Source: Deltaproteobacteria bacterium (GTDB taxonomy: Bacteria > SAR324 > NAC60-12). Taken from it: a DNA stretch of 61,749 bases. Position 1 is the first letter of the stretch, and the number at the start of each line of letters is the position of its first letter. Positions 1 to 61,749 of this stretch are shown here, in pieces. The translations under genes and the position numbers were made by a program. The notes under the pieces are model-generated. The model saw only the letters and a list, made by a program, of their open reading frames with translations, did not search any database and was not told the origin of the DNA. Location: positions 81,403-143,151 of the forward strand of contig JAYOTF010000002.1 of assembly GCA_038150265.1 (NCBI GenBank), in the 5' to 3' direction.

Positions 1-4
1 ATTT

Positions 5-748
5 ATGCACCCAATTAATCGTTTTCTGTGTGCTCTGCTTCTTGGGGGGCTGAGCCTGACCGCTTCTTCAGCGCAGGCGGTCACGTCCGAGGAGCAGGCC
101 GACCGCATTCAGCAGGTCTACTCCTTCATCCTGGATTTCCGTTCCAACGCGGCTCCGTTGCCTGAAGAGAGTGGGACGCTGGACCTTCAGGCGGATCTGC
201 TGCTGATGCCAGAGATTGACAACCGCGTGGGCGCGAAGAATGAGCCGGTGGATACGCTTCCGGTGGTGCCTCGGCTTCGGGGACGTTACCACCTGCCCTT
301 CGGACTGGTGCTGGGCCTTGCAGGCTCTCCGGGCATTCCCACCGGCTCTCAGACGGCAACCTTCTGGCAGGGAGAACTCGATTGGCGGGGCCGAGCGGGC
401 AACCTGGTGTTTGGTGCCCGGACGTCGCTCTCCTCCTGGAAGGTCGTTGGCGCCATGACCACCAAGGAGTACGACGACACCTTCCGGATTGAGCAGAACA
501 ACCTGGATGGACGCATCGGCTGGGACCTCGGAGGCTGGATTCCCTATGCCGGTTACGGCACCGGTCAGCAGGACCTGAGCCTGCTGATTGGCGAAGATGA
601 CGTCTTGCTGGAACTCAAGGACCAATCCTTTGCGTATCAGTTTATTGGGCTGGAGCTGCGCTGGAGCGACTGGGATTTTGTGGTGGAGCAGCACCAGACC
701 GAAGACTTTTTGCAGCACATTCAGTTTTCAGTAAAAAGGAGGTTTTGA
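5..748 (+). CDS. Exported protein, probable outer-membrane beta-barrel
   Basis: Signal peptide ending AQA, alternating-residue beta strands, C-terminal Phe (QFSVKRRF); overlaps the next gene. Confidence 0.6.
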   Translation: MHPINRFLCALLLGGLSLTASSAQAVTSEEQADRIQQVYSFILDFRSNAAPLPEESGTLDLQADLLLMPEIDNRVGAKNEPVDTLPVVPRLRGRYHLPFGLVLGLAGSPGIPTGSQTATFWQGELDWRGRAGNLVFGARTSLSSWKVVGAMTTKEYDDTFRIEQNNLDGRIGWDLGGWIPYAGYGTGQQDLSLLIGEDDVLLELKDQSFAYQFIGLELRWSDWDFVVEQHQTEDFLQHIQFSVKRRF

Positions 749-1176
749 TGCGTCAGGCTTGGAGAAAGTGGGGAGTGGGGATTGGATTGCTGCTCTCCTT
801 GAGCATGATGGGATGCTCCAATGCAGATACGCTGGGGGGAGAGGCTCCGGACGAAACCGTCATTACCGGAACGCCCACCTGGAATAACGGCATCAGCGAA
901 ATCGTCCAGAACAAGTGCGGCACCTGCCACGTGGTGCCTGCGACCGAGTACACGCCTGCCAGCATCCGAAGCTACAACCTGAATCTGAATGTCTACGCGG
1001 GAGACAACTCCACGGTCCGAGGGGCCGACAACCTGGGGTCCTGGATCACCGGGGGCATCCTCGAGCAGCCCATGGGCAGCATTCGCCAGATGCCACTGGA
1101 TTACGCCACTCCGCTGACGGATCGGGAAATTGGCTACCTCCAAACCTGGGCGGCCAACGGAGTCCCCGAATCCTGA
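745..1176 (+). CDS. Monoheme c-type cytochrome lipoprotein (planctomycete cytochrome c-like fold)
   Basis: Lipobox MMGC; CGTCH heme motif; distal QMP; terminal helix LTDREIGYLQTWAANG. Confidence 0.8.
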   Translation: MMRQAWRKWGVGIGLLLSLSMMGCSNADTLGGEAPDETVITGTPTWNNGISEIVQNKCGTCHVVPATEYTPASIRSYNLNLNVYAGDNSTVRGADNLGSWITGGILEQPMGSIRQMPLDYATPLTDREIGYLQTWAANGVPES

Positions 1177-1187
1177 ACCTCTGTTAG

Positions 1188-1227
1188 CCCCGTAAAAATC
1201 CCCATTTACCCGTAAAAATCCCCATTT
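1188..1227 (+). promoter_or_regulatory. Tandem direct repeat, putative upstream activator sequence for a sigma54 activator
   Basis: CCCGTAAAAATCCCCATTT twice at 20-bp period, about 120 bp upstream of a -24/-12 motif; matches the motif at 11663-11708. Confidence 0.65.
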
Positions 1228-1292
1228 CTTGCTGAGGCCTCCGATGTCCGGGGGCTTTTGCGCCCTCCGTGATCTTTTCAAAAGAATTAATG

Positions 1293-1305
1293 TTTCAAAG
1301 AGTTA
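1293..1305 (+). promoter_or_regulatory. Putative IHF site
   Basis: TTTCAAAGAGTTA, one mismatch to WATCARNNNNTTR, lying between the repeat and the sigma54 motif. Confidence 0.5.
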
Positions 1306-1346
1306 CACTTCTCTTGTTTTAAGAGAACGTGACCCTTGAGGGCACT

Positions 1347-1362
1347 CGGTATATCCGTTGCT
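1347..1362 (+). promoter_or_regulatory. Putative sigma54 (-24/-12) promoter
   Basis: CGGTATATCCGTTGCT = GG-N10-GC with TTGC, about 100 bp before the ATG at 1465. Confidence 0.6.
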
Positions 1363-1464: not shown

Positions 1465-2538
1465 ATGCTGAAGCTAGTGAAGCGGATGGCGCATACCGCT
1501 GTCGCCCTGCTGGGACTCTTCGGAACCGCAGAGGCGCAAGAGAACAAGGTTGAGATGTGTCTGAACGAGGCCATCCAGGTTTATGCGAACTGTATTGGAA
1601 ACTCGCAGGTGGGTTACAAGAACGACCCGAGTGCAAAGGCCGTGGAGATCATTGGGGACTGGGTTACCGCCGGGGCACCGAATGGTGAGTTTCAGTACAA
1701 GGGAGCAAACGGCGACCTGTATTCGGGAAACTTTGAGGAAGACATCCTGCCTCTCTTCACCAAAGCGGGGGTGTGGTACGAAGGATCTCGCTCTTGTGCC
1801 AGCTGCCACAACGGCAACACCGAAAACTCCTACCATGAGATGGATCTCAGCTCGTATGACGGCATCATGAAGGGCGGTGATGTCCTGTCCAGTCCCCCGG
1901 GAGTGGCAATTCTGGGACAATCCGGATTTGGCGCTACCGATTATGACTGGGGACACTCCAAGATGCGTGCTCGCCTGCGCAACAACCGCATGCCTCCAGG
2001 CTGGCCGGAAGACCTCTCGGAGGTCAACCGTGATGGCCCCTGTGTGGAAGTCACCGCTGCCGGTGCCACGATTCCGGGCTCAAAGGGAAAGGGGTCGCTG
2101 GAGTATGGCTGCGACCTCAATGCTGTGGGCTTGCTGGAAGCCTGGGTGAACGCGGGTGCCAAGAAGACGGAGAGCTTCAACTACGGGGGCCAGGCCGTCA
2201 ACTTTGAGCGAGACGTGAAGCAGCTCTTCACCGAAGGCAACATGTGGTACAACGGCTCGGCACCGTGTTCCAGCTGCCACTTTGGCAACACCGACCTCTC
2301 TTACCACGAGATGGACCTCGGCTCGTATGAGGGCATCATGAAGGGCGGAGACGTGGTGTCCAATCCACCGGGAGTCCCGCTGCTTGGGCACAGTGCAACC
2401 GGAGAGACCGACTACGATTGGGAGCATTCCAAGTTGCGGGAACGCCTGCGCAACAACCGGATGCCCATCGGCATCGCCTTCGACATTACGGAAGAGAACC
2501 GAGACGGGCCCATGGTTCTGCACGGCAAGCGACAGTGA
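1465..2538 (+). CDS. Periplasmic diheme c-type cytochrome with internal duplication
   Basis: GGAGG RBS; signal peptide ending AEA; two ~125-aa repeats with CASCH and CSSCH, each followed by YHEMDLxSYxGIMKGG and RNNRMP. Confidence 0.85.
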   Translation: MLKLVKRMAHTAVALLGLFGTAEAQENKVEMCLNEAIQVYANCIGNSQVGYKNDPSAKAVEIIGDWVTAGAPNGEFQYKGANGDLYSGNFEEDILPLFTKAGVWYEGSRSCASCHNGNTENSYHEMDLSSYDGIMKGGDVLSSPPGVAILGQSGFGATDYDWGHSKMRARLRNNRMPPGWPEDLSEVNRDGPCVEVTAAGATIPGSKGKGSLEYGCDLNAVGLLEAWVNAGAKKTESFNYGGQAVNFERDVKQLFTEGNMWYNGSAPCSSCHFGNTDLSYHEMDLGSYEGIMKGGDVVSNPPGVPLLGHSATGETDYDWEHSKLRERLRNNRMPIGIAFDITEENRDGPMVLHGKRQ

Positions 2539-9440: not shown

Positions 9441-10019
9441 TTAGTCAAGAAAACCATGCCCCACCCAAAGCAGCAGGACCATGACAATGGAGAGAACGTG
9501 CTGAGAGTGAATGAGCCGGTTGACCTTGGCACCGGGGGCATCTGCCCGCTGCAGCTTCATGATGAGCCCACTGAGCGCCAGCAGCACCATCAGGCCCCAC
9601 CCGGCCCACACCAGGACGTTGCCCTCTCCCGCGGTGATGCCATGCAGCCACGCAATGCCGATCAGCACCGGGTTCCCCCAGTAATGCAGGCTCCGGGTGG
9701 CATTCTTCCACTTCAGGGGCTGCTTCACCCAGGACGGGGAGCTGGTCCGGACGGCTTTGGGCGCGCGTTTGAAGCCCATGCTGTAGTAGTAGAGGGCATT
9801 GAGGGCGACAAACCCGAGCAGGGCCACGTTTCCGAGGGCTTCCCCGGCTTCGGATCCTTCTCCGCCTTCGTAGCCCTCTCCTCCAAAGAACGACGAGGAA
9901 CGGCGGTCGTCATCCCCTTCCCCCCAGTCGTCGTCATCCGCCCAAAGCGGGACGGAGAGCAGCAGGAGCGAGGCGAGCAGAACCAGGAAGGCTTTCCAGC
10001 GAAGCGAGGCGTTAGTCAT
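9441..10019 (-). CDS. Membrane protein with His-bearing helices, cytochrome b-like
   Basis: Signal peptide, acidic N-terminus, four TM segments with SLHYW, WLHG, LIHSQH and VGHG. Confidence 0.65.
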   Translation of the reverse strand: MTNASLRWKAFLVLLASLLLLSVPLWADDDDWGEGDDDRRSSSFFGGEGYEGGEGSEAGEALGNVALLGFVALNALYYYSMGFKRAPKAVRTSSPSWVKQPLKWKNATRSLHYWGNPVLIGIAWLHGITAGEGNVLVWAGWGLMVLLALSGLIMKLQRADAPGAKVNRLIHSQHVLSIVMVLLLWVGHGFLD

Positions 10020-11406
10020 GAGCAGATTCCGAAGAGGTGTGGGGGAGGATCAGGCGGACGGTCGTGCCCTGGTGTGCCTGGCTTTCCAGTTCAATTCGAC
10101 CCTGATGGGCCTCCATGATCTTTTTGCAGAGGGCCAGGCCCAGGCCAATCCCGCGACTGCGGGTGGTGTAAAACTGTTCAAAGATGTGCTCCATGTGTTC
10201 CGGAGTGATGCCGTCTCCCTCGTCTGTGATCCGGATCCATTGATGGGTGGCATCAGCCTCCACAGCGCACGTGATGCGGCTGCCTTCCGGAGAGGCATCC
10301 AGCGCATTGGAAAGCACGATCAGGAGGGCTTCCTCGAGCAGAGATGGATCTGCCGAGAGAGGGGGAAGCTCCGGAGCCTCCGGAATCTGCAAGGCCACAT
10401 TCTGTTCCCGCAGGCGCCACTCCAGCGACCGTCCGGCTTCCACGACCATCGGGTAGAGCTGCAGAGGAGCAGGATTGGGGTGAAAGGGACGGACAAAGTT
10501 GAGCAGGTGGTTGACGCGCTCGGTGAGCCGGTCGATCTCCCGGACCAGTGAGAGGACGATGTCCTGGCTTTCCTCTTTGGTGATCGAGGGAATCGAGAGC
10601 AGCTGCAGCGCGGCACGCAGTCCGGCAATGGGGTTTTTCAGTCCATGCGCAACGGAGGCGCTCACTTCCCCCATGGCGGCCAGCCGTTCCTGCTTCAGGA
10701 GCTGCACCTGCGCGGCACGGAGCTCCTGGTTGGCCTGCGCAAGCTCCTGCGCGCTGTCGAGGAGGCTGTTGTGCTGACGACGCAGAATCCGGGAGGCGGG
10801 GAAGATGATCAGGAGCAACGTCAGGTAGAGGATGCTGCCGAAGCTGAGGCTGTAGACCCAGACCGACTGCCGAAGCGAATCCACCTGCCGCTTGAGCTGA
10901 ACGTTGTAGCGATGGACCTCGATGACGCCGATGATGTCGCTTCCCCGCGGAATTGGAATGTACAAAGCGGAAGCATAGCGAGCATCCGCATGCGGGAAGG
11001 CCTCTTCATCGACCATCTCGTGCTTCAGGGTCGCCTGCCCAGACATGGCCTGACGGAAGACCGCGGAGTCCTTGTACTCTCCGGTTTCTTCCTGAATGGA
11101 GGACCACCCGATCAGGCCATCCGGATGAATGATCTCAATGCCATGGCTGCCCGGAACCATTGTGACGGCGTGCAGGACGTCCTTCAGCAACTCGCTGTCG
11201 GTGTAGAGTGTCTCAAAGGGGCGATTCCCGAGGTACTCCACCACCTCCGACTGCACGGTGGTGGTCGTGATGAGGGTGTCTCGGCTCAGCAGCTCTTCTT
11301 CCAGCTGATTGCCCAGCAACCAGCTGAGCATCAACGTGAAGCCACACAGCACCAGCAGGCTGGCAACAGAAAAAACGGGAAGCAACGGAAACGGGCGTGC
11401 AGGCAT
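10012..11406 (-). CDS. Membrane-bound sensor histidine kinase
   Basis: Two TMs around a periplasmic domain; H-box SVAHGLKNPI; NALDA; DEGDGI; GIGLGL; start placed at MPARP (GAGGT RBS). Confidence 0.92.
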   Translation of the reverse strand: MPARPFPLLPVFSVASLLVLCGFTLMLSWLLGNQLEEELLSRDTLITTTTVQSEVVEYLGNRPFETLYTDSELLKDVLHAVTMVPGSHGIEIIHPDGLIGWSSIQEETGEYKDSAVFRQAMSGQATLKHEMVDEEAFPHADARYASALYIPIPRGSDIIGVIEVHRYNVQLKRQVDSLRQSVWVYSLSFGSILYLTLLLIIFPASRILRRQHNSLLDSAQELAQANQELRAAQVQLLKQERLAAMGEVSASVAHGLKNPIAGLRAALQLLSIPSITKEESQDIVLSLVREIDRLTERVNHLLNFVRPFHPNPAPLQLYPMVVEAGRSLEWRLREQNVALQIPEAPELPPLSADPSLLEEALLIVLSNALDASPEGSRITCAVEADATHQWIRITDEGDGITPEHMEHIFEQFYTTRSRGIGLGLALCKKIMEAHQGRIELESQAHQGTTVRLILPHTSSESAHD

Positions 11407-11578
11407 GAGGACCTCGGTCGGGTCTAAGGGGCCTGAAGGACGACCACCTTCCCCCGCAGGCGACTCGGCACCAGAGGCGTGGGCCTCTGTGGGTCGGGAA
11501 AGAGAAGAAGTGGTGGTGAGCATGGTCGCAGTCAGCAAGAGGGCCTTCAGCTTGAGAAGCCTGTTTTTTATGAAATGC

Positions 11579-11594
11579 AGCAAGTCGCAGACCA
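11579..11594 (-). promoter_or_regulatory. Putative sigma54 (-24/-12) promoter
   Basis: Minus strand TGGTCTGCGACTTGCT = TGG-N8-TTGC. Confidence 0.7.
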
Positions 11595-12287: not shown

Positions 12288-13151
12288 TCAGCTGAAGACA
12301 ATGGTTTTATTCTGATGCACGAGCACTCGGTCTTCCAGGTGCCAGAGGACGGCTCGGGTGAGAACGGCTCGCTCAATGTCCTGTCCCAGTTCCTGAAGCT
12401 GCCGGGGGGAGAAGTCGTGAGCGACCCGGACCACGTCCTGCTCAATGATCGGCCCTTCGTCAAGGTCCATGGTGGCGTAGTGGGCCGTTGCGCCGATGAG
12501 CTTGACGCCACGTTCGTAGGCCTGCCGGTAGGGGTTGGCGCCAATGAACGCCGGCAGGAAGGAGTGGTGGATGTTGATGATGCGGTAGGGATACTGGGCA
12601 ATGAAGTCCTGCGAAAGGATCTGCATGTAGCGGGCGAGCACAACGAGATCCACCTGCCCCGCCATGAGGTCCAGAATCGTGGCTTCTGCGTCTGCCTTGG
12701 TACCGGACGTGACCGGCACCTCGTGATACGGCACCCCAAAGCGTTCGGTGGCGTCGCGCAGGTCCGGGTGGTTGCTGATCACCATGGCGATCCGAGCCGG
12801 TAGCAGCTGGCGACTGTGACGCCAGAGCAGGTCCAGGAGGACGTGGTCGTACTTCGACACCAAAATCGCGACGCGCTTGTGCTCGGCTGCGGGATTGAGC
12901 ACCCAGTCCATGCCATACGTCCGGGCAACGGAGTCCCGGAAGTGCTTGCGCATCACCGGAAGCGACTCCTCCAACTCCTCAATGGCAAACTCCACCCGCA
13001 TGAAGAGCGTGCCTCCGGATGGATCCGTGGAGTGCTGATCGAGGTCGAGGATGTTGCCGCCGTGGTTGTAAAGGAAGGTCGAGACGGCCGAGACGATGCC
13101 GGGGCGATCGGGGCAGGAGATGAGCAGGCGTGCGATGGAGTTGGCTTTCAT
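12288..13151 (-). CDS. purU: Formyltetrahydrofolate deformylase
   Basis: ACT domain CPDRPGIV; VLARYMQILS; INIHHSFLPAFIGANPY; GVKLIGATAH; DEGPIIEQ. Confidence 0.97.
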   Translation of the reverse strand: MKANSIARLLISCPDRPGIVSAVSTFLYNHGGNILDLDQHSTDPSGGTLFMRVEFAIEELEESLPVMRKHFRDSVARTYGMDWVLNPAAEHKRVAILVSKYDHVLLDLLWRHSRQLLPARIAMVISNHPDLRDATERFGVPYHEVPVTSGTKADAEATILDLMAGQVDLVVLARYMQILSQDFIAQYPYRIINIHHSFLPAFIGANPYRQAYERGVKLIGATAHYATMDLDEGPIIEQDVVRVAHDFSPRQLQELGQDIERAVLTRAVLWHLEDRVLVHQNKTIVFS

Positions 13152-13329
13152 GACAGTCAAGGAATGAGAAAGAAGAGCGCCTCCTCCTCAGCTTCCGGAG
13201 GGGCAGCATCAGTTCTGCAACACTCAGTCCTTCAAAACGGCTGGAAAAAACGACGGTCGAAATCAACGGCTCCGGAGTCGTCCAGAAGAGAAAGCGGCAA
13301 CAGAGCCGACTCCGGAGGAACCGTGGCGT

Positions 13330-14328
13330 TTAGCCGACCTTGACCGGCTTCCCCGTTTGCAGCGACTCCTTGGCCGCCAGTGCGATCAGGACGGGCGCGA
13401 GGCCATCGTTTCCAGAAACCGGAGGGGCCTGGTTCTGCTGAACGGCTTGCACAAAGGCCTGCAGCTCAGCCACAAACGCCGCCTGGTAGCGCTCCAGAAA
13501 GAAGTACAGGGGCTTGTCACTGACGGTTCCCGATTCCTTCATGACGGTCATCCGGGTGGGCGTGTTGTTGTCGGCAAAGGCCATCCCGCTGGAGCCAAAC
13601 ACCTCAATGCGCTGATCGTAACCGTAAACGGCCTTTCGGCTGTTCTCAATCACGCCCAGGGCCCCGTTGGCGAGCTTGAGCGAAATGACGGCGGTGTCAA
13701 TGTCACCAGCCTTGCCAATCTCCGGATCCACCAGCACGGCGCCATAGGCGTGGACCTCCTCGACTTCGCTGCCGCTGAGGAAGCGGATCATGTCAAAATC
13801 GTGGATGGTCATGTCGAGAAACAGGCCCCCGGAGCTGGCAACGTACTCGGCAGGAGGCGGGGCGGGATCGCGAGAGGTGACCCGGATCAACTGCGGCTCG
13901 CCCAGGGCTCCGGACGCCACCTGCTGCTGCACGGCGGCAAAGCTGGGGTCAAAGCGACGATTGAAGCCGACCTGCAGCGTGACCCCTGCCCGTTCGACCG
14001 CTGCCAGCGCCTGGCGAATCACCTCCGGATCCAGCGCAATCGGCTTCTCACAGAAGATGTGCTTCCCGGCCTGGGCGCATTCAATCATCTGAGGGGCGTG
14101 TTCCGGAGAAGGAGACCCAATGAGGATGGCATCAATTTCCGGATCTTCCAGGAGCATCCGGTGGTCCTTCCCAAAGACTTCAATGCCTCGCGATTGCGCC
14201 CAGGCTTCGTCGAGAAACGGGTCGGTGATTGCCTTGAGTCGGGCGCCGTCCACGCGGCTGAGCAGGTTGTCCGCATGCAACTTGCCGATGCGTCCGGCCC
14301 CGATGATGCCAAAGGTAAGGGGATTCAT
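13330..14328 (-). CDS. iolG: myo-inositol 2-dehydrogenase
   Basis: GAGRIG; CEKP; GFNRRFD; SRDPAPP; DMTIHDFD; YGYDQRIEVFGS; divergent from the iol operon. Confidence 0.93.
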   Translation of the reverse strand: MNPLTFGIIGAGRIGKLHADNLLSRVDGARLKAITDPFLDEAWAQSRGIEVFGKDHRMLLEDPEIDAILIGSPSPEHAPQMIECAQAGKHIFCEKPIALDPEVIRQALAAVERAGVTLQVGFNRRFDPSFAAVQQQVASGALGEPQLIRVTSRDPAPPPAEYVASSGGLFLDMTIHDFDMIRFLSGSEVEEVHAYGAVLVDPEIGKAGDIDTAVISLKLANGALGVIENSRKAVYGYDQRIEVFGSSGMAFADNNTPTRMTVMKESGTVSDKPLYFFLERYQAAFVAELQAFVQAVQQNQAPPVSGNDGLAPVLIALAAKESLQTGKPVKVG

Positions 14329-14506
14329 AAAGGTGCATTTCGAAATGAGATGAAGAAGGATCACCCACGTCCGTGGCGCAGGCTGGCGGAGGGCTCGAAA
14401 CCGGTACGATCCGGAACATGCTCCTGCTTGAGAAGACACCAGAGCCGCCGCTGATGCAAGCTCTGAAATTCTGAAGCGCCGCGTGAAAATGTAGTTGACT
14501 TCCACG

Positions 14507-14554: not shown

Positions 14555-14692
14555 TAAATCCTGAAGGGAGCCGAGTCGCGACCCTGCCGAATTGCCCCTT
14601 GAGAGCGCTGGCTCAACGAGCTGTTTGCGCCCGATACGGCTACCTGCCGGAGGCGGCTTCCCCCATGAATTGATTTGCCAGTAGAAACCGCC

Positions 14693-16603
14693 ATGTCTCG
14701 ACCGTTTGATGCCAGTCGCTCACTTGATCTCATCAGCATGGGACGGGTGGCGGTGGACCTTTATGCCGAGCAGGTTCACAGTCCCTTGGAAGAAGCCCAG
14801 AGCTTTCGCCGGTACCTCGGGGGATGTGCGGGCAACATCGCCGTTGGAACCGCGCGGCTCGGGCTGAAGTCTTCCATGTTTTCCTGTGTGGGAACCGACG
14901 ACATGGGCCGGTTTCTGCGGGCACAGCTGCAGCGCGAGGGGGTGGACACGTCCTTGTTGCAGGAAACCTCCGAGCACCTCACGGCGCTGGTGCTGCTGGG
15001 GGTGAGTCCGCCCGACCGCTTTCCCCTGATTTTCTATCGTGAGAACTGCGCCGACATGCAGCTGCGTCCCGAACACGCGCAGGCGGAGGTGTTTGCACGA
15101 GCAAAGGCGCTCCTCATCACCGGAACGGGCCTGTCCACGCCCTCCATGCGGCAGGCCACGTTGCAGGCGGTGAAGGTCGCCAAGGCCTCTGGCTGTGCCG
15201 TGATCCTCGACATCGACTACCGTCCGGTACTGTGGGGGCTCACTGCAGCCGGAGACGGAGAAAGCCGCTTTGTTGCCTCCAGCCGGGTCACCCGGGAGCT
15301 GCTCCCGTTGCTTCCGGAACTGGATCTGATCATCGGCACCGAAGAGGAGGTGCTGATTGCTGGAGGCTCCGAATCGCTGGCGGCGGCGTTGGAGACGATC
15401 CGGTCGTCTTCTCCTGCGACGGTGGTCCTCAAACGGGGGGAGCGTGGGTGTGAAGTCTTTGAGCCTGAGCATCCGGAGCCTCGAACGGCCCGCTCCTTTC
15501 CGATTGACGTCCTCAATGTGCTGGGAGCCGGAGACGCGTTTGCCTCCGGATTCCTCCGGGGCTGGCTTCGGGGCGAGCCGCTGGAAACCTGTGCCCTCTG
15601 GGGCAATGCCAACGGCGCGCTGACGGTCACCCGGCACGGTTGTGCGCCGGCGATGGCCTCGTTTTCAGAGCTGCAGTACCTGATCGGTCAGTTTGATCAC
15701 GATCCGGCGGTGCTGCAGAGTCCGGAGCTGCTTCGGCGGCACCAGCAAACCGTGCTGGGCTTTCCCCGGGAGCATCCGCTGCTGGTGCTGGCGTTCGATC
15801 ACCGCCGGCAGTTTGAGGAAACGTGCGAGCGCCTGAAGGTTTCGGAGGAGCGCATTCCGGAGTTCAAGCAGCAGGTGCATCAGGGCTTCCTGAAGGTGGT
15901 GGCGCGCAATCCGGAGTTGCCCCTGGCGCTGCTGGTCGATCCGCAGTATGGAAGCCGCATTTTGCAAGACTCGGCCTATGCGCCTTATGAAGTCGGTGTG
16001 CCGGTAGAGAAGGCCGGGTCGTTTCCGGTGGAGTGGCTCTGTGGTCCGGAGCTGCATCAGCACCTCCTCAAGCGTCCCAGCGAGTGGTTTGTGAAGGTGC
16101 TCTGGCACTTCCACCCCGACCTGCCTCCAGAGCAGCAGGAGCAGCAGCTGCGGCAGCTTTCCCAGCTGGAAGCCGTGTGCCGCGAACTGGACCGGCGCCT
16201 GATGCTGGAGCTGATTCTTCCCGAGTCCCTTCCTGAAACCGGAGGCGCGCTGGCCCAGGCAATGGAGGCTGTCTATGCGGCTCGGATTTATCCGTTTTGG
16301 TGGAAGGTCATGGCCCTGGATTCGGAAGCGGATTGGCAGCAGGTGACGCGTGTGCTGAATCAGCAGGATCCGGATGCGGGAGTGATCGTGCTGGGCAAGA
16401 ATGCGCCGCTGGAGCAGTTTCAGGAGTGGTTCCGACTCTTCCGGGCCACGCCGCACGCCTGTGGCTTTGCCATTGGGCGCAGCATCTTCTGGGAACCGTG
16501 GGAAGCCTTTGCGGCCGGTGAACTTCCTGCCGAAGAGGTCCCGCAGATCATTGCTGAACGGTATCAGCAGCTATTGGAATTGTGGAACGCGTACGCGCCC
16601 TAA
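14693..16603 (+). CDS. iolC: 5-dehydro-2-deoxygluconokinase with C-terminal DUF2090 aldolase-like domain
   Basis: GRVAVDLY; FPLIFYRENCADM; DIDYRPVLW; NVLGAGDAF; LAFDHR; GFAIGRSIF. Confidence 0.95.
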   Translation: MSRPFDASRSLDLISMGRVAVDLYAEQVHSPLEEAQSFRRYLGGCAGNIAVGTARLGLKSSMFSCVGTDDMGRFLRAQLQREGVDTSLLQETSEHLTALVLLGVSPPDRFPLIFYRENCADMQLRPEHAQAEVFARAKALLITGTGLSTPSMRQATLQAVKVAKASGCAVILDIDYRPVLWGLTAAGDGESRFVASSRVTRELLPLLPELDLIIGTEEEVLIAGGSESLAAALETIRSSSPATVVLKRGERGCEVFEPEHPEPRTARSFPIDVLNVLGAGDAFASGFLRGWLRGEPLETCALWGNANGALTVTRHGCAPAMASFSELQYLIGQFDHDPAVLQSPELLRRHQQTVLGFPREHPLLVLAFDHRRQFEETCERLKVSEERIPEFKQQVHQGFLKVVARNPELPLALLVDPQYGSRILQDSAYAPYEVGVPVEKAGSFPVEWLCGPELHQHLLKRPSEWFVKVLWHFHPDLPPEQQEQQLRQLSQLEAVCRELDRRLMLELILPESLPETGGALAQAMEAVYAARIYPFWWKVMALDSEADWQQVTRVLNQQDPDAGVIVLGKNAPLEQFQEWFRLFRATPHACGFAIGRSIFWEPWEAFAAGELPAEEVPQIIAERYQQLLELWNAYAP

Positions 16604-22877: not shown

Positions 22878-23864
22878 ATGACATTTTTTTCCTCGCCCAA
22901 GCTGCTGGCAGGGGCCGCATTGAGCCTGTTGGTGGGGCTCTCCGGCTGCTCGGATGAGCAACTCAACTCCCTGTTGCAACAAGCGTTGGACAACCAGACC
23001 GTTGCTGGGACCACTGATAATCAGAGCATTACCACCGCTGATGACAATGCTTCTTCCGGAGTCAACCTGACCTGTTCCGGGCGTCCGGATGACGGTCGGG
23101 CGACCGGCCGAACGGTTCTGCACGAAGGAGAAGACCGGGAGCGTGGTGAAGACCATGGCGATGACGACGGGTCGTCACACGAACAGGAAGGCCCCAGAGG
23201 TCCTCGCCCCGAGGTCAGCGATTCAAACGATGGCTATGGGCAGGACCCAAACAATGGCTCGGATGCTCAGGCGTCCAATGAGGGCTATGGGCAGGATCCG
23301 TACGATGGCTCGAATGAAACGGAACCGCCTCCGCCTCCACCGCAGACGGGTGACGCGTCCGACTCCGATTCCCATGATTCCGGAGCCGGGCCCCACGATC
23401 CGGCTCATGATCCGGGAAGCGAGGGAAGCCACCTGAACGACGGTTCCGGAGCCGGCTGCGGACCTGAAGCCCTGGCCAGTGTGACGGGAGCTTCGCGGAG
23501 CCACCACTTTGGAGAAGACTGCATGGCCTGTCACACGGCAGGAAGCGGAAGTGAGGCCGGTGAGCATGCGTTCACCATCGCGGGAAGCATCTACCGCAAC
23601 GGAAGCGCTCTGCTGGACAGCGAGGCGACGGTCAGCTTCTACACCGAATCCTACGGCCGAGGCACTCATGTGCTGACCCTGCCCGTTGATGCGGAAGGGA
23701 ACTTCTTCACGAATCAGTCGATTCCGGAACTCAGCCAGGGCCTCTACCCACAAGTGGAACACCAAGGATGGACCACGTCGATGGTCTCACAGCCAACCAC
23801 AACGGGCTCCTGTGCCAGCTGCCATGCCAGCACCACTGCCCAGGGCCCGATTTACGCCCAGTAA
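22878..23864 (+). CDS. Diheme c-type cytochrome lipoprotein with long acidic low-complexity linker
   Basis: Lipobox LSGC; D/G/S/P-rich linker; DCMACH and SCASCH flanking a beta-sandwich-like segment. Confidence 0.8.
   Translation: MTFFSSPKLLAGAALSLLVGLSGCSDEQLNSLLQQALDNQTVAGTTDNQSITTADDNASSGVNLTCSGRPDDGRATGRTVLHEGEDRERGEDHGDDDGSSHEQEGPRGPRPEVSDSNDGYGQDPNNGSDAQASNEGYGQDPYDGSNETEPPPPPPQTGDASDSDSHDSGAGPHDPAHDPGSEGSHLNDGSGAGCGPEALASVTGASRSHHFGEDCMACHTAGSGSEAGEHAFTIAGSIYRNGSALLDSEATVSFYTESYGRGTHVLTLPVDAEGNFFTNQSIPELSQGLYPQVEHQGWTTSMVSQPTTTGSCASCHASTTAQGPIYAQ
23223..23315 (+). repeat. 51-bp imperfect coding tandem repeat
   Basis: GGCTATGGGCAGGAYCC..A.GATGGCTCG-like unit twice, encoding SN(D/E)GYGQDPxxGS. 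Confidence 0.7.
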
Positions 23865-49751: not shown

Positions 49752-50758
49752 ATTACGTACAACTTCAGATCCGTCGGCTCGTGTCTCTTCAAACGGTGTT
49801 GGGGGTCGGCCTGTTCCTGATGGGCCTCCTTCCGGCTCAGGTGAGCGCACAGGGAACGAACACGGTGGCGACCCTGGTGCAGCTGGAAGGCATTGTGCAG
49901 GTTGTGGAGCCAAGTGGACGCCTCAAGGTGATGCGCGAGGGGCAGTTTGTGTATGCGGGAGAGGAAGTCCGGACGGGCGCCGACTCCAAGGTGTCGGTGC
50001 TGTTTCGAGACAACTCGCGGGTTCGGCTCTATGCCGGGAGCAACTTTCTGATTCAAGAGGCTGAAGAACGCCCGACCACGAACCGGACCTTCCGGTTCCA
50101 GATGGAGCTGAAGAAGGGAAACCTGCAGGGACGCTTTCAGCCGCGTCGGCAGCTGACTCGGCTCCGGACACCGGTCGCTACCGTGGGCATCAAGGGCACC
50201 TCCATCTGGCTGGGACACAGCACCCGGAACGGAACCACCGTTGGGCTGTCGGAAGGGCTGCTGGAGGTGGAAAATGCCGCCTCGACCCTGATGCTGCAGC
50301 CCGGACAGTGGATCCCGCAGTTTGTGGCCACCGACAACCTTTCTGGCAAGGTGGCACCGCTGCCTCGCAAGGTGCTGCTGAAAACGGAAGACTATGAGCT
50401 TCCGGCCAAGGCCAGTGACCCGATCAAGCTGTTCCTCAGCATCCAACTCATTGACAGCCAGAGTGGTCGAGACATCAAGGAGCGTGGGCTGGTGCTGCTG
50501 GAGACGGACTACCCTGGGGTGCAGATGCCTCCACGGGTGAACCTGGACTCCAGCGGGTTCCTGCGGATCCCGATCCTGGTGCAGCCTCCGCTGAAGGGGG
50601 TGGCGCCTCCGGAGCTGGTGCGCCTGTATGCAATCATGGATGGCCCCAGCTTTGAAAACGTTGGCGAGGGCCTGCTGGTCCTGAAGTGGCGGGTGCCGGA
50701 TCAGACGCAGCGGCTCCTGCTGGATCCGGTCACGGACGAATTCAAGCAGCTTCCGTGA
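49748..50758 (+). CDS. FecR-domain exported protein
   Basis: VRTGADS...F.D.S...L; TPVATVGIKGT; EG.LEV. Confidence 0.8.
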   Translation: MNYVQLQIRRLVSLQTVLGVGLFLMGLLPAQVSAQGTNTVATLVQLEGIVQVVEPSGRLKVMREGQFVYAGEEVRTGADSKVSVLFRDNSRVRLYAGSNFLIQEAEERPTTNRTFRFQMELKKGNLQGRFQPRRQLTRLRTPVATVGIKGTSIWLGHSTRNGTTVGLSEGLLEVENAASTLMLQPGQWIPQFVATDNLSGKVAPLPRKVLLKTEDYELPAKASDPIKLFLSIQLIDSQSGRDIKERGLVLLETDYPGVQMPPRVNLDSSGFLRIPILVQPPLKGVAPPELVRLYAIMDGPSFENVGEGLLVLKWRVPDQTQRLLLDPVTDEFKQLP

Positions 50759-51162
50759 TGCGCATCGGGTGGGTTTTTGGCTTCATGAGCCTGATGCTGG
50801 CAGGAAGCGCCGCGGCTCAGGACCTGCGAGCGTTTCACCTCATTCTGCGTGAGCCTGACCCCGGAGTGCCGCCGGAGACCTACTTTCAGGACGGCAAACT
50901 CCGGTACCTCGGCGCGCAGGAAGGCGGCCGCCCTTCCGGAACCGGGCGCCTGCTCCTGGACTCCGGAAAGTCTGCCTACGAAGGCGCCTTTGTGAATGGG
51001 CTTCCGGAAGGCCAGGGCACGCTTTACGATTTCAACGGATTCCGGATCTACTCTGGCGAATTCCGGGCCGGACGCTTTCACGGAGCCGGCACCCTCTATG
51101 CGGATGCAGAAAAGGGCGTTCTCTTTGAAGGGCGCTTTGAAAACGGCCGCCCCGTCCCCTGA
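50758..51162 (+). CDS. MORN-repeat protein
   Basis: Signal peptide; YEGAFVNGLPEGQG; YSGEFRAGRFHGAG. Confidence 0.85.
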   Translation: MRIGWVFGFMSLMLAGSAAAQDLRAFHLILREPDPGVPPETYFQDGKLRYLGAQEGGRPSGTGRLLLDSGKSAYEGAFVNGLPEGQGTLYDFNGFRIYSGEFRAGRFHGAGTLYADAEKGVLFEGRFENGRPVP

Positions 51163-51174
51163 AGTTCTTTTCCC

Positions 51175-52056
51175 ATGTCTTCCCTGTTTGTCCGGGTGAT
51201 GCCCGGGGTCTTTGTGGTGCTTTGGAGCACCGGCTTCATCAGCTCCAAGTTTGGCGTGCAGTATGCCGAGCCGCTGACGCTGCTGTTTTGGCGGATGCTG
51301 CTGACGTCGCTGTTTCTGGGGGGCATGCTGCTGCTGCTGCGGCAGCCCCGGCTGGAGAAGGCGGTGGTGCAGCAGCAGATGCTGGCCGGCACCCTCATTC
51401 ATGGATGCTACCTCGGGGGCGTCTTCTGGGCGATCCGGCAGGGCATGCCGGCTGGCATCAGCTCGCTGCTGGTGGGCCTGCAACCGATTGTGACGGTTCT
51501 GCTGGCGCGGTTTTGGCTCCGGGAGCGCCTGTCTCGGCTGCAGTGGCTGGGGTCGGTTTTGGGACTGCTGGGAGTGATGCTGGTGCTGCATCCGATCTGG
51601 GGAGGCATGGAGGCCGAGCGTGTGCTGGGCGCGGCTCCGCTGGCGGTTCCGGGCATCCTCATTGCGTTGCTGGGCATCTCGATTGGAACGGTTTACCAGA
51701 AGCACAAGGGCCAGAACGTGCCGTTGCTGTCCGGAAGCTTCTGGCAGTTTGTTGCGGCCACGCTGTGCTTTGCCGTGATGTCGCTGCTGCTCGAGCACTG
51801 GGAGGTCCGCTGGGAGTGGCCGCTGATTGGGGTGCTGTCCTGGATGGTGCTGGGGCTGTCGGTGGGAGCCATCAGCCTGCTGATGCTGCTGATCCGGAAG
51901 GGAGAGGCTTCTCGCGTGGCCAACCTCTTTTACCTGGTGCCGCCGCTGGTGGCACTGGAAACGTGGTGGCTCTTTGGTGAGCAGCTCGACGGACTCCAAG
52001 GGGGCGGCATGCTGGTGACGCTCCTTGGAGTCGTGATGGTGTCGCGCTTCTCGTGA
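51175..52056 (+). CDS. DMT/EamA-family transporter
   Basis: FVVLWSTGF; 10 TMs; LFYLVPP. Confidence 0.92.
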   Translation: MSSLFVRVMPGVFVVLWSTGFISSKFGVQYAEPLTLLFWRMLLTSLFLGGMLLLLRQPRLEKAVVQQQMLAGTLIHGCYLGGVFWAIRQGMPAGISSLLVGLQPIVTVLLARFWLRERLSRLQWLGSVLGLLGVMLVLHPIWGGMEAERVLGAAPLAVPGILIALLGISIGTVYQKHKGQNVPLLSGSFWQFVAATLCFAVMSLLLEHWEVRWEWPLIGVLSWMVLGLSVGAISLLMLLIRKGEASRVANLFYLVPPLVALETWWLFGEQLDGLQGGGMLVTLLGVVMVSRFS

Positions 52057-60232: not shown

Positions 60233-60933
60233 GGGGTTCCGGAGGCTTGGTTCAACTCAACGAGGTTCCACCGTTGCTCAAAGCGCGCGCCCAGAGAGGC
60301 ATCGTGGCTGACCAGTACAAGGGTGCTTCCGGAGGCTTCACATTCCTGAAACAGCAACTCCAGGAACCCGTCTCGCGCCGAGGCGTCCAGGGCCGACGTG
60401 GGCTCGTCGGCAATGATCAACTCCGGACGTCCAATCAGCGCCCGAGCAGCGGCGACTCGCTGTTGCTGGCCCACGCTTAACTCAATCACCGGACGCTGCT
60501 GCAGCAAGGGCTCCTCCAGGCCCAGGGAACGAAGCAGACGCTCAGCCTCAGGTTCCCAGGTGGAGGCGGCTCCCACGCGTGCCGCCCGCTCTCGGGAAAA
60601 GCGCAGCGGCAGCACCACGTTTTCCGTCAAGGAAAGGTAGGGGAGCAGGTTGAAGAGCTGGAAGAGGAACCCGAGGTGGGCAACCCGGAAGGCATCGCGC
60701 TGAGACGCAGAAAGCGCAGCCAGGTCCTGACCCAGCACCTGAAGGCTTCCGGAGTGGGGAAGCAGGATGCCGCCAATGAGCGACAGGAGGGTCGATTTGC
60801 CACTCCCGCTTGGTCCTTCCAGAAAGGCATGGGTTCCCGCAGAGAGCTGCAGCTCTGGAAGGTGCAGCACATCGTGGCCTTGGCTCGGCCAGCGGAACCG
60901 GACCTCCCGGAGACTGAGGATCGGATCGCCCAT
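60226..60933 (-). CDS. ABC transporter ATP-binding protein
   Basis: GPSGSGKS; LSVGQQQR; ADEPTSALD. Confidence 0.95.
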   Translation of the reverse strand: MGDPILSLREVRFRWPSQGHDVLHLPELQLSAGTHAFLEGPSGSGKSTLLSLIGGILLPHSGSLQVLGQDLAALSASQRDAFRVAHLGFLFQLFNLLPYLSLTENVVLPLRFSRERAARVGAASTWEPEAERLLRSLGLEEPLLQQRPVIELSVGQQQRVAAARALIGRPELIIADEPTSALDASARDGFLELLFQECEASGSTLVLVSHDASLGARFEQRWNLVELNQASGTPC

Positions 60934-60937
60934 GAGT

Positions 60938-61507
60938 TCAGTCCCAGCCCTGCAGCTGCGTGTTTCCTGCTGAAAGCTCCTGAGCGCCCTGCTGATTGTG
61001 AAGCCACCACTGCACCCGGACCTCGTGGGTTTGCGGAAAGGTTTGCAGGAGCTGGGTGTCCAGCGCGTTCAGGTTTTCCGGAGCATGGCAGCGCCACTGC
61101 CACTGAGCCTGGAATTCCGAGTGCCGGGCTTCCCCTTCGTGGTCGCCCTGTGCTTCTGAGGCGTGGTCTTCGTGGTCGGAGTGAGCGGCATCAGAAAAGA
61201 GCGTGTTGTGCACCTGCACGCTGGAAAGAAAACACGCGGCTGCTTCCGGAAGCACAAACAGGCGCTCTGGCTGAGCCAGGGCGGCTGCTCCCTCGGTGAA
61301 GGCCTGGCGGTCTTCTGCTGCTTCCGGAAGGTACTCGAACCCGATGAGGCTCGCAGCCGGAGCCTCAAATTCCATCTGCAGCGTCTCCTCTTCCAGCACC
61401 ACCATGAGCTGAGCCACCCCGTGTTCATGCGCGGCCATGCTTGCTTGCGCCAGGCTGATCGAAGGCGCCCCAAGCAGTCCCAACAGAGCCCATTTCCATC
61501 TCTTCAT
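60938..61507 (-). CDS. DUF2796 (ZrgA-like) periplasmic zinc-binding protein
   Basis: Signal peptide; AHEHG; PA..L.GFE; His-rich loop; HSEF. Confidence 0.9.
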   Translation of the reverse strand: MKRWKWALLGLLGAPSISLAQASMAAHEHGVAQLMVVLEEETLQMEFEAPAASLIGFEYLPEAAEDRQAFTEGAAALAQPERLFVLPEAAACFLSSVQVHNTLFSDAAHSDHEDHASEAQGDHEGEARHSEFQAQWQWRCHAPENLNALDTQLLQTFPQTHEVRVQWWLHNQQGAQELSAGNTQLQGWD

Positions 61508-61536
61508 CTCTCGTTCCTCAAAAAGTTCTCAGTTTT

Positions 61537-61551
61537 AGTAATAGTATAACG
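61537..61551. promoter_or_regulatory. Zur box
   Basis: Minus strand CGTTATA-C-TATTACT, 30 bp upstream of the DUF2796 gene; similar to 47635-47649. Confidence 0.8.
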
Positions 61552-61749
61552 TTTCATTAAACTAGTGGCCTCTCCCTGGAATGTCAAGCAGGATCCCGGG
61601 GCAATCGCATGAAGGGAGGCAACCGGCTCATCTTGAAAAAACAGTCGCGAATCGCTGGATCGGTTCCCTCGCTGGAGTCACGTCCGTCCTTCTCGCGAAG
61701 GCGAGGATCCCGTCAATGCGTCGAAGGCCACCGGTTCAAGGACTGGATC

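What the first reader, a model, noticed from the sequence alone, without database searches (positions are those of the whole stretch)
1..61749. TCCGGA behaves as a highly iterated palindrome (HIP1-like) across the window
Seen: a manual count gives about 55 TCCGGA in the first 20 kb. About 7 are expected at ~62% GC, and the density looks similar further on. Five copies fall within 10199-10384. It occurs in all three reading frames (483 F-R-I, 846 A-P-D, 1921 S-G) and in intergenic DNA (13271, 13311), so protein sequence does not explain it. Same-composition palindromes such as ACCGGT look far rarer by eye. Known: cyanobacterial HIP1 (GCGATCGC) shows this pattern and has been linked to DNA methyltransferases; TCCGGA is the BspEI/Kpn2I site. 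Inference: a lineage-specific methyltransferase-coupled repair system, or an uptake/recombination/chromosome-organising signal, creates or keeps the site. I know of no description of this in such a lineage.
Basis: partly seen in the sequence, partly recalled or inferred. Interest (0 to 1): 0.8.

Follow-up and report, generated by a model that had tools for sequence, protein, structure and literature searches.

The report
Hyper-abundant, helix-phased TCCGGA palindrome
This uncultured bacterium and many relatives write the six-letter palindrome TCCGGA into their DNA about once every 350 bases, in genes and between them, with copies spaced in step with the turns of the double helix, a so far unexplained chromosome-wide signal like the HIP1 repeats of cyanobacteria.

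Summary
The window holds 170 TCCGGA (20 expected) and the genome 9,711, one per 350 bp. It is the most over-represented hexamer (8.7x). The excess survives synonymous-codon (4.1x), dinucleotide-context and dicodon-preserving nulls. It holds in all three frames and between genes (7.8x), and no other NCCGGN hexamer shares it.

About 40% of peptide contexts that can encode the word do so. Proteomes of enriched genomes lean towards Ser-Gly and Pro-Glu/Asp. A same-family genome without the trait shows 2% occupancy.

Density varies across the phylum from strong enrichment (GC 43-61%) to strong avoidance.

Sites are retained between species above the synonymous background.

Copies are phased at about 10.45 bp. 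The phase differs by lineage: whole turns in three genomes, about half turns in one, borderline in a fifth.

No C5 methylase or Vsr was found. A conserved orphan SPPY methylase exists but does not track the trait.

Most likely an abundant protein reads the word with respect to helix geometry, though the mechanism is inferred.

The scan noted this signal before on another window of this genome (e1-7657551). My literature searches found no report.

The parts
1..61749 (.). 170 copies of TCCGGA spread over the whole window (about 2.75 per kb): 38 as TCC-GGA, 51 as xTC-CGG-Axx, 62 as xxT-CCG-GAx, and 19 between my gene calls
   Evidence: The genome-wide density is the same: 10-kb windows average 29.1 sites, with variance/mean 1.11 and a minimum of 10.
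10199..10384 (.). Five copies inside a histidine-kinase gene (10012-11583, minus strand). They encode T-P-E, I-R-I, S-P-E, A-P-E and I-P-E. Spacings are 31, 56, 84 and 9 bp.
483..488 (.). Example copy read as F-R-I (xTC-CGG-Axx frame)
846..851 (.). Example copy read as A-P-D (xxT-CCG-GAx frame)
1921..1926 (.). Example copy read as S-G (TCC-GGA frame)
13271..13316 (.). Two intergenic copies 40 bp apart, between my gene calls 12288-13160 (minus strand) and 13330-14505 (minus strand)
50935..51046 (.). Four copies within 112 bp (at 50935, 50962, 51003 and 51041) that fall outside my gene calls
   Evidence: The gene calls are my own crude ORF-based ones, so the non-coding status here is not certain (a 432-aa ORF, 50701-51999, minus strand, is listed).

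Best explanation
SHOWN. TCCGGA is a real word at the DNA level. A directional force keeps it at about 40% of every position where the proteins allow it, and at the same excess between genes. The force is strong enough to shift dipeptide usage. It acts uniformly along the chromosome and has persisted through lineages whose GC ranges from 43% to 61%. Copies are not placed independently: pair distances oscillate with a period of about 10.45 bp for up to 300-500 bp. Unoccupied peptide contexts show no such oscillation at that period, so the geometry of the double helix matters.

INFERRED (most likely mechanism). The palindrome is the binding site of an abundant, twofold-symmetric DNA-binding protein, either a nucleoid-organising protein or a reader of a modification on this site. 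Its neighbouring copies interact along the helix. Selection, or conversion biased by that protein, therefore favours sites at particular rotational settings: whole turns in genus g1 (G000, G002) and g11 (G018), and about half turns in g12 (G013). The short-range deficit below about 30 bp would be the footprint, or avoidance of 6-bp stem hairpins.
For: - Enrichment under every null tried.
- TCCGGA is first of all 4,096 hexamers under synonymous shuffling (O/E 4.11, z 123).
- Intergenic DNA holds 1,004 sites in 427 kb (7.8x), and gaps of 300 bp or less hold 308 sites (7.6x).
- Occupancy is 8,666 of 21,531 permissive contexts (40.2%).
- Choice is cooperative across three codons. CCG is used for 78% of Pro before Asp/Glu when the previous codon ends in T, against 37-58% otherwise.
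- Per-gene occupancy is binomial: chi2/df 1.06 over 1,158 genes.
- Negative control G020 (same family, GC 57.5%): 17 sites in 120 kb (O/E 0.46) and occupancy 13 of 586. Dipeptide O/E there is PE 1.34, SG 1.08 and PD 0.94, against 1.60-1.71, 1.32-1.56 and 1.21-1.39 in five enriched genomes.
- Retention between G000 and G002 (262 orthologue pairs, 100,799 codons, 4-fold identity 0.518). With amino acids conserved, P(site in G002 | site in G000) is 0.46, 0.62 and 0.58 by frame, against 0.19, 0.11 and 0.30 without a site in G000. Codons inside the word are retained 1.09-1.76x more often than the same codons elsewhere.
- Phasing in G000. Occupied-occupied pairs give periodogram power 31.9 at 10.45 bp. 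Unoccupied contexts give 3.4 and mixed pairs 3.9.
- Other equally common words give 6.5 or less at any period. TTC/GAA gives 14 at 11.4 bp.
- Bootstrap at period 10.45 bp, distances 18-130 bp: G000 amplitude 0.23 (random 99th percentile 0.07), phase 0.97 +/- 0.03 turn; G002 0.31 and 0.97; G018 0.58 and 0.00; G013 0.39 and 0.58 +/- 0.04.
- Phased pairs have unrelated spacers (mean identity 0.26-0.29) on many contigs, so no repeat family causes the phasing.
- Only the first flanking base carries information, so the unit is the hexamer or at most (T)TCCGGA(A).
Against: - No candidate reader was found or tested.
- The preferred phase differs between lineages, which a single conserved reader does not obviously predict.
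- G001, of the same genus as the window, shows only a borderline signal: amplitude 0.23 against a random 99th percentile of 0.24, with phase 0.64 rather than about 0.
- Higher retention and higher occupancy are equally expected from biased repair or gene conversion, which divergence data cannot tell from selection.
- Phasing is not detectable in the window alone (170 sites, power 2.3).
- Gene calls are my own ORF-based ones, and some are clearly wrong-strand ORFs.
- The samples of G002, G001, G018 and G020 are only 0.12-0.66 Mb.
Confidence: 0.45

Rival explanations
1. Methylation-coupled repair or conversion (an Elhai-type ratchet). The conserved orphan SPPY amino-methyltransferase (contig C51) modifies TCCGGA. 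A repair or strand-discrimination system that uses the mark converts near-sites into sites and protects existing ones. A SeqA-like reader of paired marks could add the helical phasing.
For: - A single-copy, vertically inherited DNA methylase (PF01555, 37 bits, motifs DPFMGGGT...SPPY) is present.
- In the one neighbouring ORF scanned with Pfam, no nuclease family was recognised.
- Its SPPY region matches solved DNA cytosine-N4 methyltransferases 8s9n and 8s9m (E 1.7e-5).
- All lineages above 1 site per kb that are well covered carry it: g1 3 of 3 (G000, G001, G002), g12 3 of 3, g11 12 of 18.
- Elhai 2015 (PMC4390886, abstract and passages read) links HIPs to cognate methylases.
Against: - The same enzyme is found in non-enriched g2 (7 of 9) and family f2 (18 of 19). 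That includes G020, which has 2% occupancy.
- It was not found in family f7 (0 of 19), where several genera are moderately enriched.
- No Vsr, no C5 methylase, and no PF02384 or PF07669 methylase was found.
- C-to-T products are not depleted.
- Single-base variants are commonest at positions 1/6 and 3/4, not only at the outer bases.
- The enzyme's specificity is unknown.
Confidence: 0.2
2. Intrinsic DNA mechanics without a dedicated reader. TCCGGA is a local bend or flexibility element. Selection on curvature or supercoil handling sets both its density and its rotational spacing, additive at whole turns and cancelling at half turns.
For: - Helical period of 10.35-10.6 bp in four genomes, persisting to 300-500 bp in G000.
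- Both phase classes exist (0 and about 0.5 turn).
- Placement is uniform and independent of genes.
Against: - Nothing explains why this one hexamer is used and not other YYYRRR or NCCGGN words.
- There is no coupling to AA/TT phasing: cross-correlation power is 2.0 in G000 and 6.0 at 11.35 bp in G013.
- Sister lineages with similar GC lack the word altogether.
Confidence: 0.13
3. A self-tag for DNA uptake, recombination or defence. The word marks own DNA for preferential uptake or recombination, or spares it from a system that acts on DNA lacking the word.
For: - Even coverage of the whole chromosome, with no 10-kb window below 10 sites.
- Some viral contigs are also dense in the word: L244 at 5.2 per kb, and L178, L202 and L236 at 3.5-3.7 per kb. 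This set was selected for holding two octamers.
- HIP1 is reported to aid transformation (bioRxiv 10.1101/2024.09.10.611283) and to correlate with transfer genes (PMC13756078). For both papers I saw only the search listing and abstract start.
Against: - Known uptake sequences are longer and not palindromic (recalled).
- Only one flanking base is informative here.
- Helical phasing is not expected for such tags.
- Competence and defence genes were not examined.
- The hosts of the viral contigs are unknown.
Confidence: 0.1
4. A by-product of codon usage, codon-pair bias, dinucleotide bias or amino-acid composition.
For: - About half of the zero-order excess is absorbed once amino-acid sequence and codon usage are fixed (8.7x falls to 4.1x).
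- The maximal-order Markov ratio is only 1.22.
Against: - The excess is the same between genes (7.6-7.8x).
- All three frames are enriched 3.3-4.9x under synonymous shuffling and 2.7-3.9x when dinucleotide contexts are also kept.
- The excess survives the dicodon null.
- The trait is present at GC 43%, 57% and 61% and absent at GC 57.5% in a sister genus.
- Helical phasing is seen only among occupied sites.
Confidence: 0.02

Closest known systems
HIP1 (GCGATCGC) and the alternate HIPs of cyanobacteria. Sources: Elhai 2015, PMC4390886, abstract and passages read; Xu, Lawrence and Durand 2018, PMC5861425, abstract and outline read.
   Same: - A short GC-rich palindrome that is hyper-abundant in genes and between genes.
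- Its abundance varies between related lineages.
- Sites are conserved between genomes beyond the neutral expectation.
- No gene-level function is apparent, and a role in chromosome structure is suspected.
   Different: - It lies in another phylum and is a different, shorter word (6 rather than 8 letters).
- It is denser (1 per 350 bp) but has a lower fold-excess (8.7x, against the 15-300x stated in the Xu abstract).
- The periodicity reported for HIP1 is 10-90 kb (Xu abstract). Here it is 10.45 bp, and the phase is lineage-specific.
- HIPs co-occur with cognate methylases (Elhai abstract). Here the only conserved methylase does not track the trait.
- TCCGGA does not occur in Elhai's text (0 hits).
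Very-short-patch repair skew of CCWGG-related words in Escherichia coli (Dcm plus Vsr; recalled, not read here)
   Same: A repair bias tied to a methylated palindrome can raise the frequency of that word across the whole genome.
   Different: No Vsr and no C5 methylase was found. The C-to-T products TCTGGA/TCCAGA are enriched rather than depleted. The effect here is far larger, and it is phased.
SeqA binding to paired GATC sites on one face of the helix in E. coli (recalled, not read here)
   Same: It is the best-known case in which copies of a short palindromic methylation site matter as pairs set at whole helical turns.
   Different: GATC is not hyper-abundant to this degree. No SeqA or Dam-type system was sought or found here. 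One lineage (G013) prefers about half turns.
DNA uptake sequences of Pasteurellaceae and Neisseriaceae, and oriented words such as Chi and KOPS (recalled)
   Same: They are short words at about 1 per kb or denser, spread over the chromosome and kept by a cellular machine.
   Different: Those words are longer, not palindromic and often strand-skewed. None is reported to be phased with the helix.

Membership tests
Highly iterated palindromes (HIP class) | A short palindrome that is the most over-represented word of its length, genome-wide | tested here: met
   TCCGGA ranks first of 3,856 hexamers at Markov orders 0 and 3, and first of 4,096 under synonymous shuffling. The fold-excess of 8.7x is below the 15-300x that the Xu 2018 abstract gives for HIP1.
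Highly iterated palindromes (HIP class) | Present in all reading frames and in non-coding DNA | tested here: met
   The three frames are enriched 3.8x, 3.3x and 4.9x over synonymous shuffling, and intergenic DNA 7.8x.
Highly iterated palindromes (HIP class) | Sites conserved between genomes above the neutral expectation | tested here: met
   In the G000-G002 comparison, codons inside the word are retained 1.09-1.76x more often than the same codons outside it. Selection and biased conversion cannot be separated by this test.
Highly iterated palindromes (HIP class) | A cognate (orphan) methyltransferase co-occurs with the word (Elhai 2015) | tested here: inconclusive
   An orphan SPPY methylase is present, but its specificity is unknown. 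It is found in non-enriched g2 and f2 and was not found in f7.
Highly iterated palindromes (HIP class) | Periodic distribution at the 10-90 kb scale (Xu 2018) | not tested
   The assembly is in 87 contigs and the largest is 214 kb. Only spacings of 600 bp or less were analysed.
VSP-type repair skew (Dcm/Vsr) | A Vsr endonuclease and a C5 cytosine methylase in the genome | tested here: not met
   PF03852 and PF00145 give no match in a 97.8%-complete genome.
VSP-type repair skew (Dcm/Vsr) | Depletion of the deamination products of the site | tested here: not met
   TCTGGA/TCCAGA has O/E 2.58 at order 0 and 1.48 at order 3. TTCGGA/TCCGAA has 1.34 and 0.85.
DNA uptake signal sequences | A conserved core of 9-12 bases, not palindromic, with flank preferences | tested here: not met
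   The core is a 6-base palindrome. Only the first flanking base is informative (0.05-0.10 bit).
DNA uptake signal sequences | Competence machinery present and co-distributed with the word | not tested
   No search was made.
Restriction-modification target | The site is avoided in the host genome, and a nuclease is paired with the methylase | tested here: not met
   The site is enriched 8.7x. In the one neighbouring ORF of the C51 methylase that was scanned with Pfam, no nuclease family was recognised. Five genera of family f7 do avoid the word (15-267 sites per genome).
Dispersed repeat elements (REP/MITE) | Copies share extended flanking sequence | tested here: not met
   Flanks beyond +/-1 are at background. 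Spacers of phased pairs are unrelated, with mean identity 0.26-0.29.

The most novel reading that the evidence does not exclude
TCCGGA is the written part of a chromosome-wide rotational code, a bacterial counterpart of nucleosome-positioning signals. A still unknown architectural protein, possibly acting through a modification set by the conserved orphan SPPY methylase, docks on the palindrome. It packs DNA in arrays whose geometry has switched during evolution: same-face arrays in genera g1 and g11, and alternate-face arrays in g12. Reader and genome co-evolve strongly enough to rewrite a third or more of all permissive codon contexts and to bias the proteome.
Probability: 0.25. Interest if true: 0.9.

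Novelty: new variant of a known kind. Interest (0 to 1): 0.8.

Why it matters
Highly iterated palindromes have gone unexplained in cyanobacteria for three decades. It has three properties that make it easier to study.

1. Close relatives with the trait (26-40% occupancy) and without it (2%) exist inside one family. Genes that co-vary with the trait can therefore be sought by comparison.
2. The signal has a helical phase, which points to physical reading of duplex DNA rather than to a mutational accident.
3. The phase differs between lineages, which gives a second, independent trait to map.

The case also shows that a DNA-level word can measurably shape protein sequences (Ser-Gly, Pro-Glu, Pro-Asp). 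It is also a practical warning: in these genomes, codon-pair and dipeptide statistics are dominated by one hexamer.

Tried and rejected
- C45 methylase (SPPY, next to a reverse-transcriptase gene). It has a full-length relative only in G001 (71% identity) and a 45-residue fragment in G002. It is absent from the enriched genera g4, g11 and g12, so I rejected it as the cause.
- Methylase families PF00145, PF02384 and PF07669, and Vsr (PF03852). No match in the genome.
- Coupling of the word to AA/TT phasing. Weak or absent.
- Phasing in the window alone. Not detectable with 170 sites.
- Phasing in G001. Borderline only.
- Islands free of the word. None found. The few low-occupancy "genes" are mostly wrong-strand ORFs of my own caller, plus one giant repeat protein.
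- Population variation from public runs. Six runs hold half or more of the sampled words of a 10-kb stretch. On 20 kb laid with four runs, 0 of the 40 listed differences fall in the 312 motif letters (0.6 expected), and 538 further differences were not shown. The test has no power.
- Viral contigs. A few are dense in the word, but the set is selected for it and the hosts are unknown.
- Literature. Searches for "TCCGGA" with "over-represented", with "palindrome" and "genome", and with "methyltransferase" or "methylome" found no report of this signal. Neither did "SAR324" with "methylation" and "motif", nor "metaepigenomic" with "SAR324".
- Larger negative control. Only 120 kb of G020 and 31 kb of G014 were obtained.
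- Organism identity. Not verified with marker genes. Relatives of the C51 methylase lie in records titled as uncultured Deltaproteobacteria, Pseudomonadota or bacterium MAGs.
Full report
**Observation.** The window holds 170 TCCGGA where base composition predicts 20.3 (8.4x). The same-composition palindromes ACCGGT (15), AGGCCT (29) and TGGCCA (29) are ordinary. The window is G000:C2:81403-143151, in a 3.39-Mb assembly of 87 contigs at 61.2% GC, rated 97.8% complete. Genome-wide there are 9,711 sites, one per 350 bp.

**Null models.** Observed/expected is 8.69, 7.57, 3.95, 2.39 and 1.22 for Markov orders 0 to 4. TCCGGA ranks first of 3,856 hexamers at orders 0 and 3. The low order-4 value is expected, because that null conditions on the two overlapping pentamers of the word itself.

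I called genes with a simple ORF and codon-score method: 2,660 calls covering 87.6% of the genome. With amino-acid sequence and per-gene codon usage held fixed (20 shuffles), the three frames hold:

| Frame | Observed | Expected | Ratio |
|---|---|---|---|
| TCC-GGA | 2,044 | 539 | 3.8x |
| xTC-CGG-Axx | 2,542 | 761 | 3.3x |
| xxT-CCG-GAx | 4,080 | 836 | 4.9x |

A shuffle that also preserves every dinucleotide context gives 3.9x, 2.7x and 3.9x. The header printed swaps the last two frame labels; the assignment above is the one confirmed.

Against all 4,096 hexamers under synonymous shuffling (8 shuffles), TCCGGA is first by ratio (4.11) and by z (123). The runners-up are its own sub-words. The dicodon TCC-GGA is 4.1x its codon-usage expectation. 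The other refutation test also fails: the remaining NCCGGN hexamers lie at 0.67-2.26x. Between my gene calls there are 1,004 sites in 427 kb (7.8x; 6.0x at order 1), and 308 in gaps of 300 bp or less (7.6x).

**A DNA word that reaches into proteins.**
- Of 21,531 peptide contexts that could encode the word (Ser-Gly; Phe/Leu/Ile/Val-Arg-Axx; xxT-Pro-Asp/Glu), 8,666 do (40.2%).
- Codon choice is cooperative over three codons. After Ser-TCC, Gly is GGA in 65% of cases, against 15-41% after other Ser codons. Before Asp/Glu, Pro is CCG in 78% of cases when the preceding codon ends in T, against 37-58% otherwise.
- Pro-Glu is the most over-represented dipeptide of the proteome (1.64). Ser-Gly (1.42) and Pro-Asp (1.39) are also high.
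- The same holds in samples of four other enriched genomes: PE 1.60-1.71, SG 1.32-1.56, PD 1.21-1.38.
- In 120 kb of G020, a same-family genome at 57.5% GC, the word occurs 17 times (O/E 0.46) and occupancy is 13 of 586 (2.2%). The dipeptides are near ordinary there (PE 1.34, SG 1.08, PD 0.94). That sample is small (85 gene calls).

**Placement.**
- Density is close to Poisson along the genome. Ten-kb windows average 29.1 sites, with variance/mean 1.11, and none has fewer than 10. There is only a dip around start codons.
- Per-gene occupancy is binomial: chi2/df 1.06 over 1,158 genes with at least 8 contexts.
- Only the first flanking base is informative: A at 1.6-1.7x in G000, G013 and G018, and G in G001.

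I see no promoter, gene-class or island pattern and no longer element.

**Relatives.** In the 88 genomes held for the phylum, density per kb is:

| Lineage | Sites per kb |
|---|---|
| genus g1 (own genus) | 2.2-2.9 |
| g12 | 1.4-2.3 |
| g11 (most genomes) | about 1-2.1 |
| g4 | 0.7-1.1 |
| g6, g3, g10 | about 0.5-0.6 |
| g2 (nine genomes) | 0.13-0.24 |
| family f2 | mostly ordinary |
| f7: g33, g36, g37 | about 0.24-0.7 |

Five genera of f7 (g38, g40-g43) have only 15-267 sites per genome against 1,435-1,882 of the reversed control word. Fetched samples confirm that TCCGGA is the top hexamer at very different GC: G013 at 56.5% GC (7.7x), G018 at 42.7% (8.7x) and G001 at 60.3% (7.8x). Composition therefore cannot be the cause.

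**Retention.** G002 is collinear with the window at 79-83% identity. Over 262 reciprocal-best orthologue pairs (100,799 aligned codons, 89% amino-acid identity, 4-fold-site identity 0.518), G000 has 883 sites and G002 has 709, with 403 shared. Where the amino acids are conserved, a G000 site is also a site in G002 in 46%, 62% and 58% of cases by frame. Contexts without a G000 site carry one in G002 in 19%, 11% and 30%. Codons inside the word are kept 1.09-1.76x more often than the same codons elsewhere; for example CTT is kept 0.77 against 0.31, and CCG 0.71 against 0.50. This parallels the conservation argument made for HIP1 (Xu 2018, abstract). It cannot by itself separate selection from biased conversion.

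**Helical phasing.**
- Null test. Against a null that redraws which permissive contexts carry the word, pair distances in G000 oscillate with a 10.5-bp period (power 53.5). Peaks lie near 31, 42, 52, 63, 72, 84 and 94 bp, with a deficit below about 30 bp.
- DNA level, not peptide level. Occupied-occupied pairs give power 31.9 at 10.45 bp. Unoccupied contexts give 3.4 and mixed pairs 3.9.
- Specificity. Other words of similar abundance reach 6.5 or less; TTC/GAA reaches 14 at 11.4 bp.
- Range. The signal persists to 300-500 bp.
- No repeat family. Phased pairs have unrelated spacers on many contigs.

Bootstrapping 20-kb chunks at a fixed period of 10.45 bp over distances 18-130 bp gives:

| Genome | Relative amplitude | Random 99th percentile | Peak phase (turns) |
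|---|---|---|---|
| G000 | 0.23 | 0.07 | 0.97 +/- 0.03 |
| G002 | 0.31 | 0.26 | 0.97 +/- 0.08 |
| G018 | 0.58 | 0.32 | 0.00 +/- 0.04 |
| G013 | 0.39 | 0.16 | 0.58 +/- 0.04 |
| G001 | 0.23 | 0.24 | 0.64 +/- 0.13 |

In G018, pairs at 21, 31-32 and 42 bp are 4-6 times the random level. In G013, pairs at whole turns (31-34, 41-43, 52-54, 62-64 bp) are almost absent, while unoccupied contexts are slightly more common at 30-33 and 62-63 bp. So the period is shared but the preferred rotational setting differs between lineages. I have no explanation for this, and I regard it as the most surprising result.

**Methylases and repair.** No C5 methylase, Vsr, PF02384 or PF07669 match was found. Two amino-methylases with an SPPY motif exist.
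- C45 enzyme. It overlaps the stop codon of a reverse-transcriptase gene. It is shared only with G001, so it is a mobile or defence gene, not the cause.
- C51 enzyme. It is cut by the contig end in G000 and is 730 aa in G002. It has about 330 residues of Arg/Asp/Glu-rich repeats followed by an alpha-type methylase (DPFMGGGT ... SPPY). Its SPPY stretch matches solved cytosine-N4 methylases.
- Inheritance of the C51 enzyme. It is single-copy, and its identity falls with distance: 93% in G002, 74% in G001, 64-66% in g12, 49-53% in g11, 46-49% in g2, and 41-51% in f2 for matches spanning most of the query.
- Distribution of the C51 enzyme. It was found in 52 of 88 genomes: f1 32 of 44, f2 18 of 19, f7 0 of 19. 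It is therefore present in lineages without the trait and absent from some with a moderate trait.

Presence alone does not explain the word, and its target is unknown.

**Mechanism.** The facts to explain are:
1. a uniform occupancy of about 40%, equal in coding and non-coding DNA;
2. retention above background;
3. a shift in the proteome;
4. persistence across a wide GC range, with on/off differences between sister genera;
5. helical phasing restricted to occupied sites;
6. two phase classes.

Codon or composition artefacts fail on points 1, 4 and 5. A pure repair or mutation bias explains points 1 to 4 but not 5 or 6, unless the biasing protein itself binds cooperatively along the helix. Intrinsic DNA mechanics explains 5 and 6 but not why only this word is used. 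I therefore favour a twofold-symmetric protein that reads TCCGGA and interacts with neighbouring copies (confidence about 0.45). A methylation-linked version is the main rival. Every step beyond "DNA-level, directional, helix-aware" is inference.

**Comparison and novelty.** The closest known phenomenon is HIP1 and the alternate HIPs of cyanobacteria. The shared and differing features are listed under Closest known systems. TCCGGA is not mentioned in Elhai 2015, and five literature searches found no report of this signal. Subscription-only papers are outside the library that was searched. The scan itself has already noted the signal on another window of this genome, and related TCCGGA excesses in phages.

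**Limits.**
- Gene calls are my own and crude.
- Four relatives are represented by samples of 0.38-1.1 Mb, and the negative control by 0.12 Mb.
- No methylation or binding data exist.

Noticed in passing
G000 contig C51 (L029 2-1387, cut by the contig end); full length in G002 (L031 451-2643): A conserved single-copy orphan DNA methylase (motifs DPFMGGGT...SPPY) carries about 330 N-terminal residues of Arg/Asp/Glu-rich repeats of the EDRPRR type. It was found in 52 of 88 genomes of the phylum. Its target and the role of the repeat arm are unknown.
   Followed up: partly
G000 contig C45 (L001 35-1444 and 1441-2217): A reverse-transcriptase gene (RVT_1) overlaps by 4 bases the start of an SPPY N6/N4 methylase gene. 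An unannotated 311-aa ORF follows. The pair is shared only with G001. It may be a defence or retroelement module.
   Followed up: partly
Genomes G081 and G083-G087 (family f7, genera g38 and g40-g43): TCCGGA is strongly avoided: 15-267 copies per genome, against 1,435-1,882 of the reversed control AGGCCT. This is the opposite of the window's lineage and is what a restriction system that cuts this site would produce.
   Followed up: no
G013 (genus g12), 1.12 Mb sampled: Pair spacing of TCCGGA peaks at about half helical turns (27, 37.5, 48.5, 59 bp) and is nearly empty at whole turns. This is the reverse of G000, G002 and G018. AA/TT also shows a strong 10.4-bp period there.
   Followed up: partly
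viral contigs L244, L178, L202, L236: Stretches of viral contigs, one from a 249-kb contig, carry 3.5-5.2 TCCGGA per kb (11-24x). They were found by a scan for two TTCCGGAA within 40 bp, so the set is selected for the word. Hosts are unknown.
   Followed up: partly
window 25001-25095 (minus strand): A selenocysteine tRNA gene (Rfam RF01852, 65.5 bits).
   Followed up: no
whole genome and window: TA is extremely rare (dinucleotide ratio 0.31). Palindromes that contain CTAG are almost absent from the window (TCTAGA 0, CCTAGG 0, GCTAGC 0, ACTAGT 1). TACTAC/GTAGTA stands out at Markov orders 1-2.
   Followed up: no
window 23226-23302: Contigs from three public runs (X4, X19, X5) skip 75 bases here. 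This is an in-frame-length deletion polymorphism among natural strains.
   Followed up: no
window 14675-16603 (plus strand): A PfkB-family sugar kinase is fused to a DUF2090 domain.
   Followed up: no
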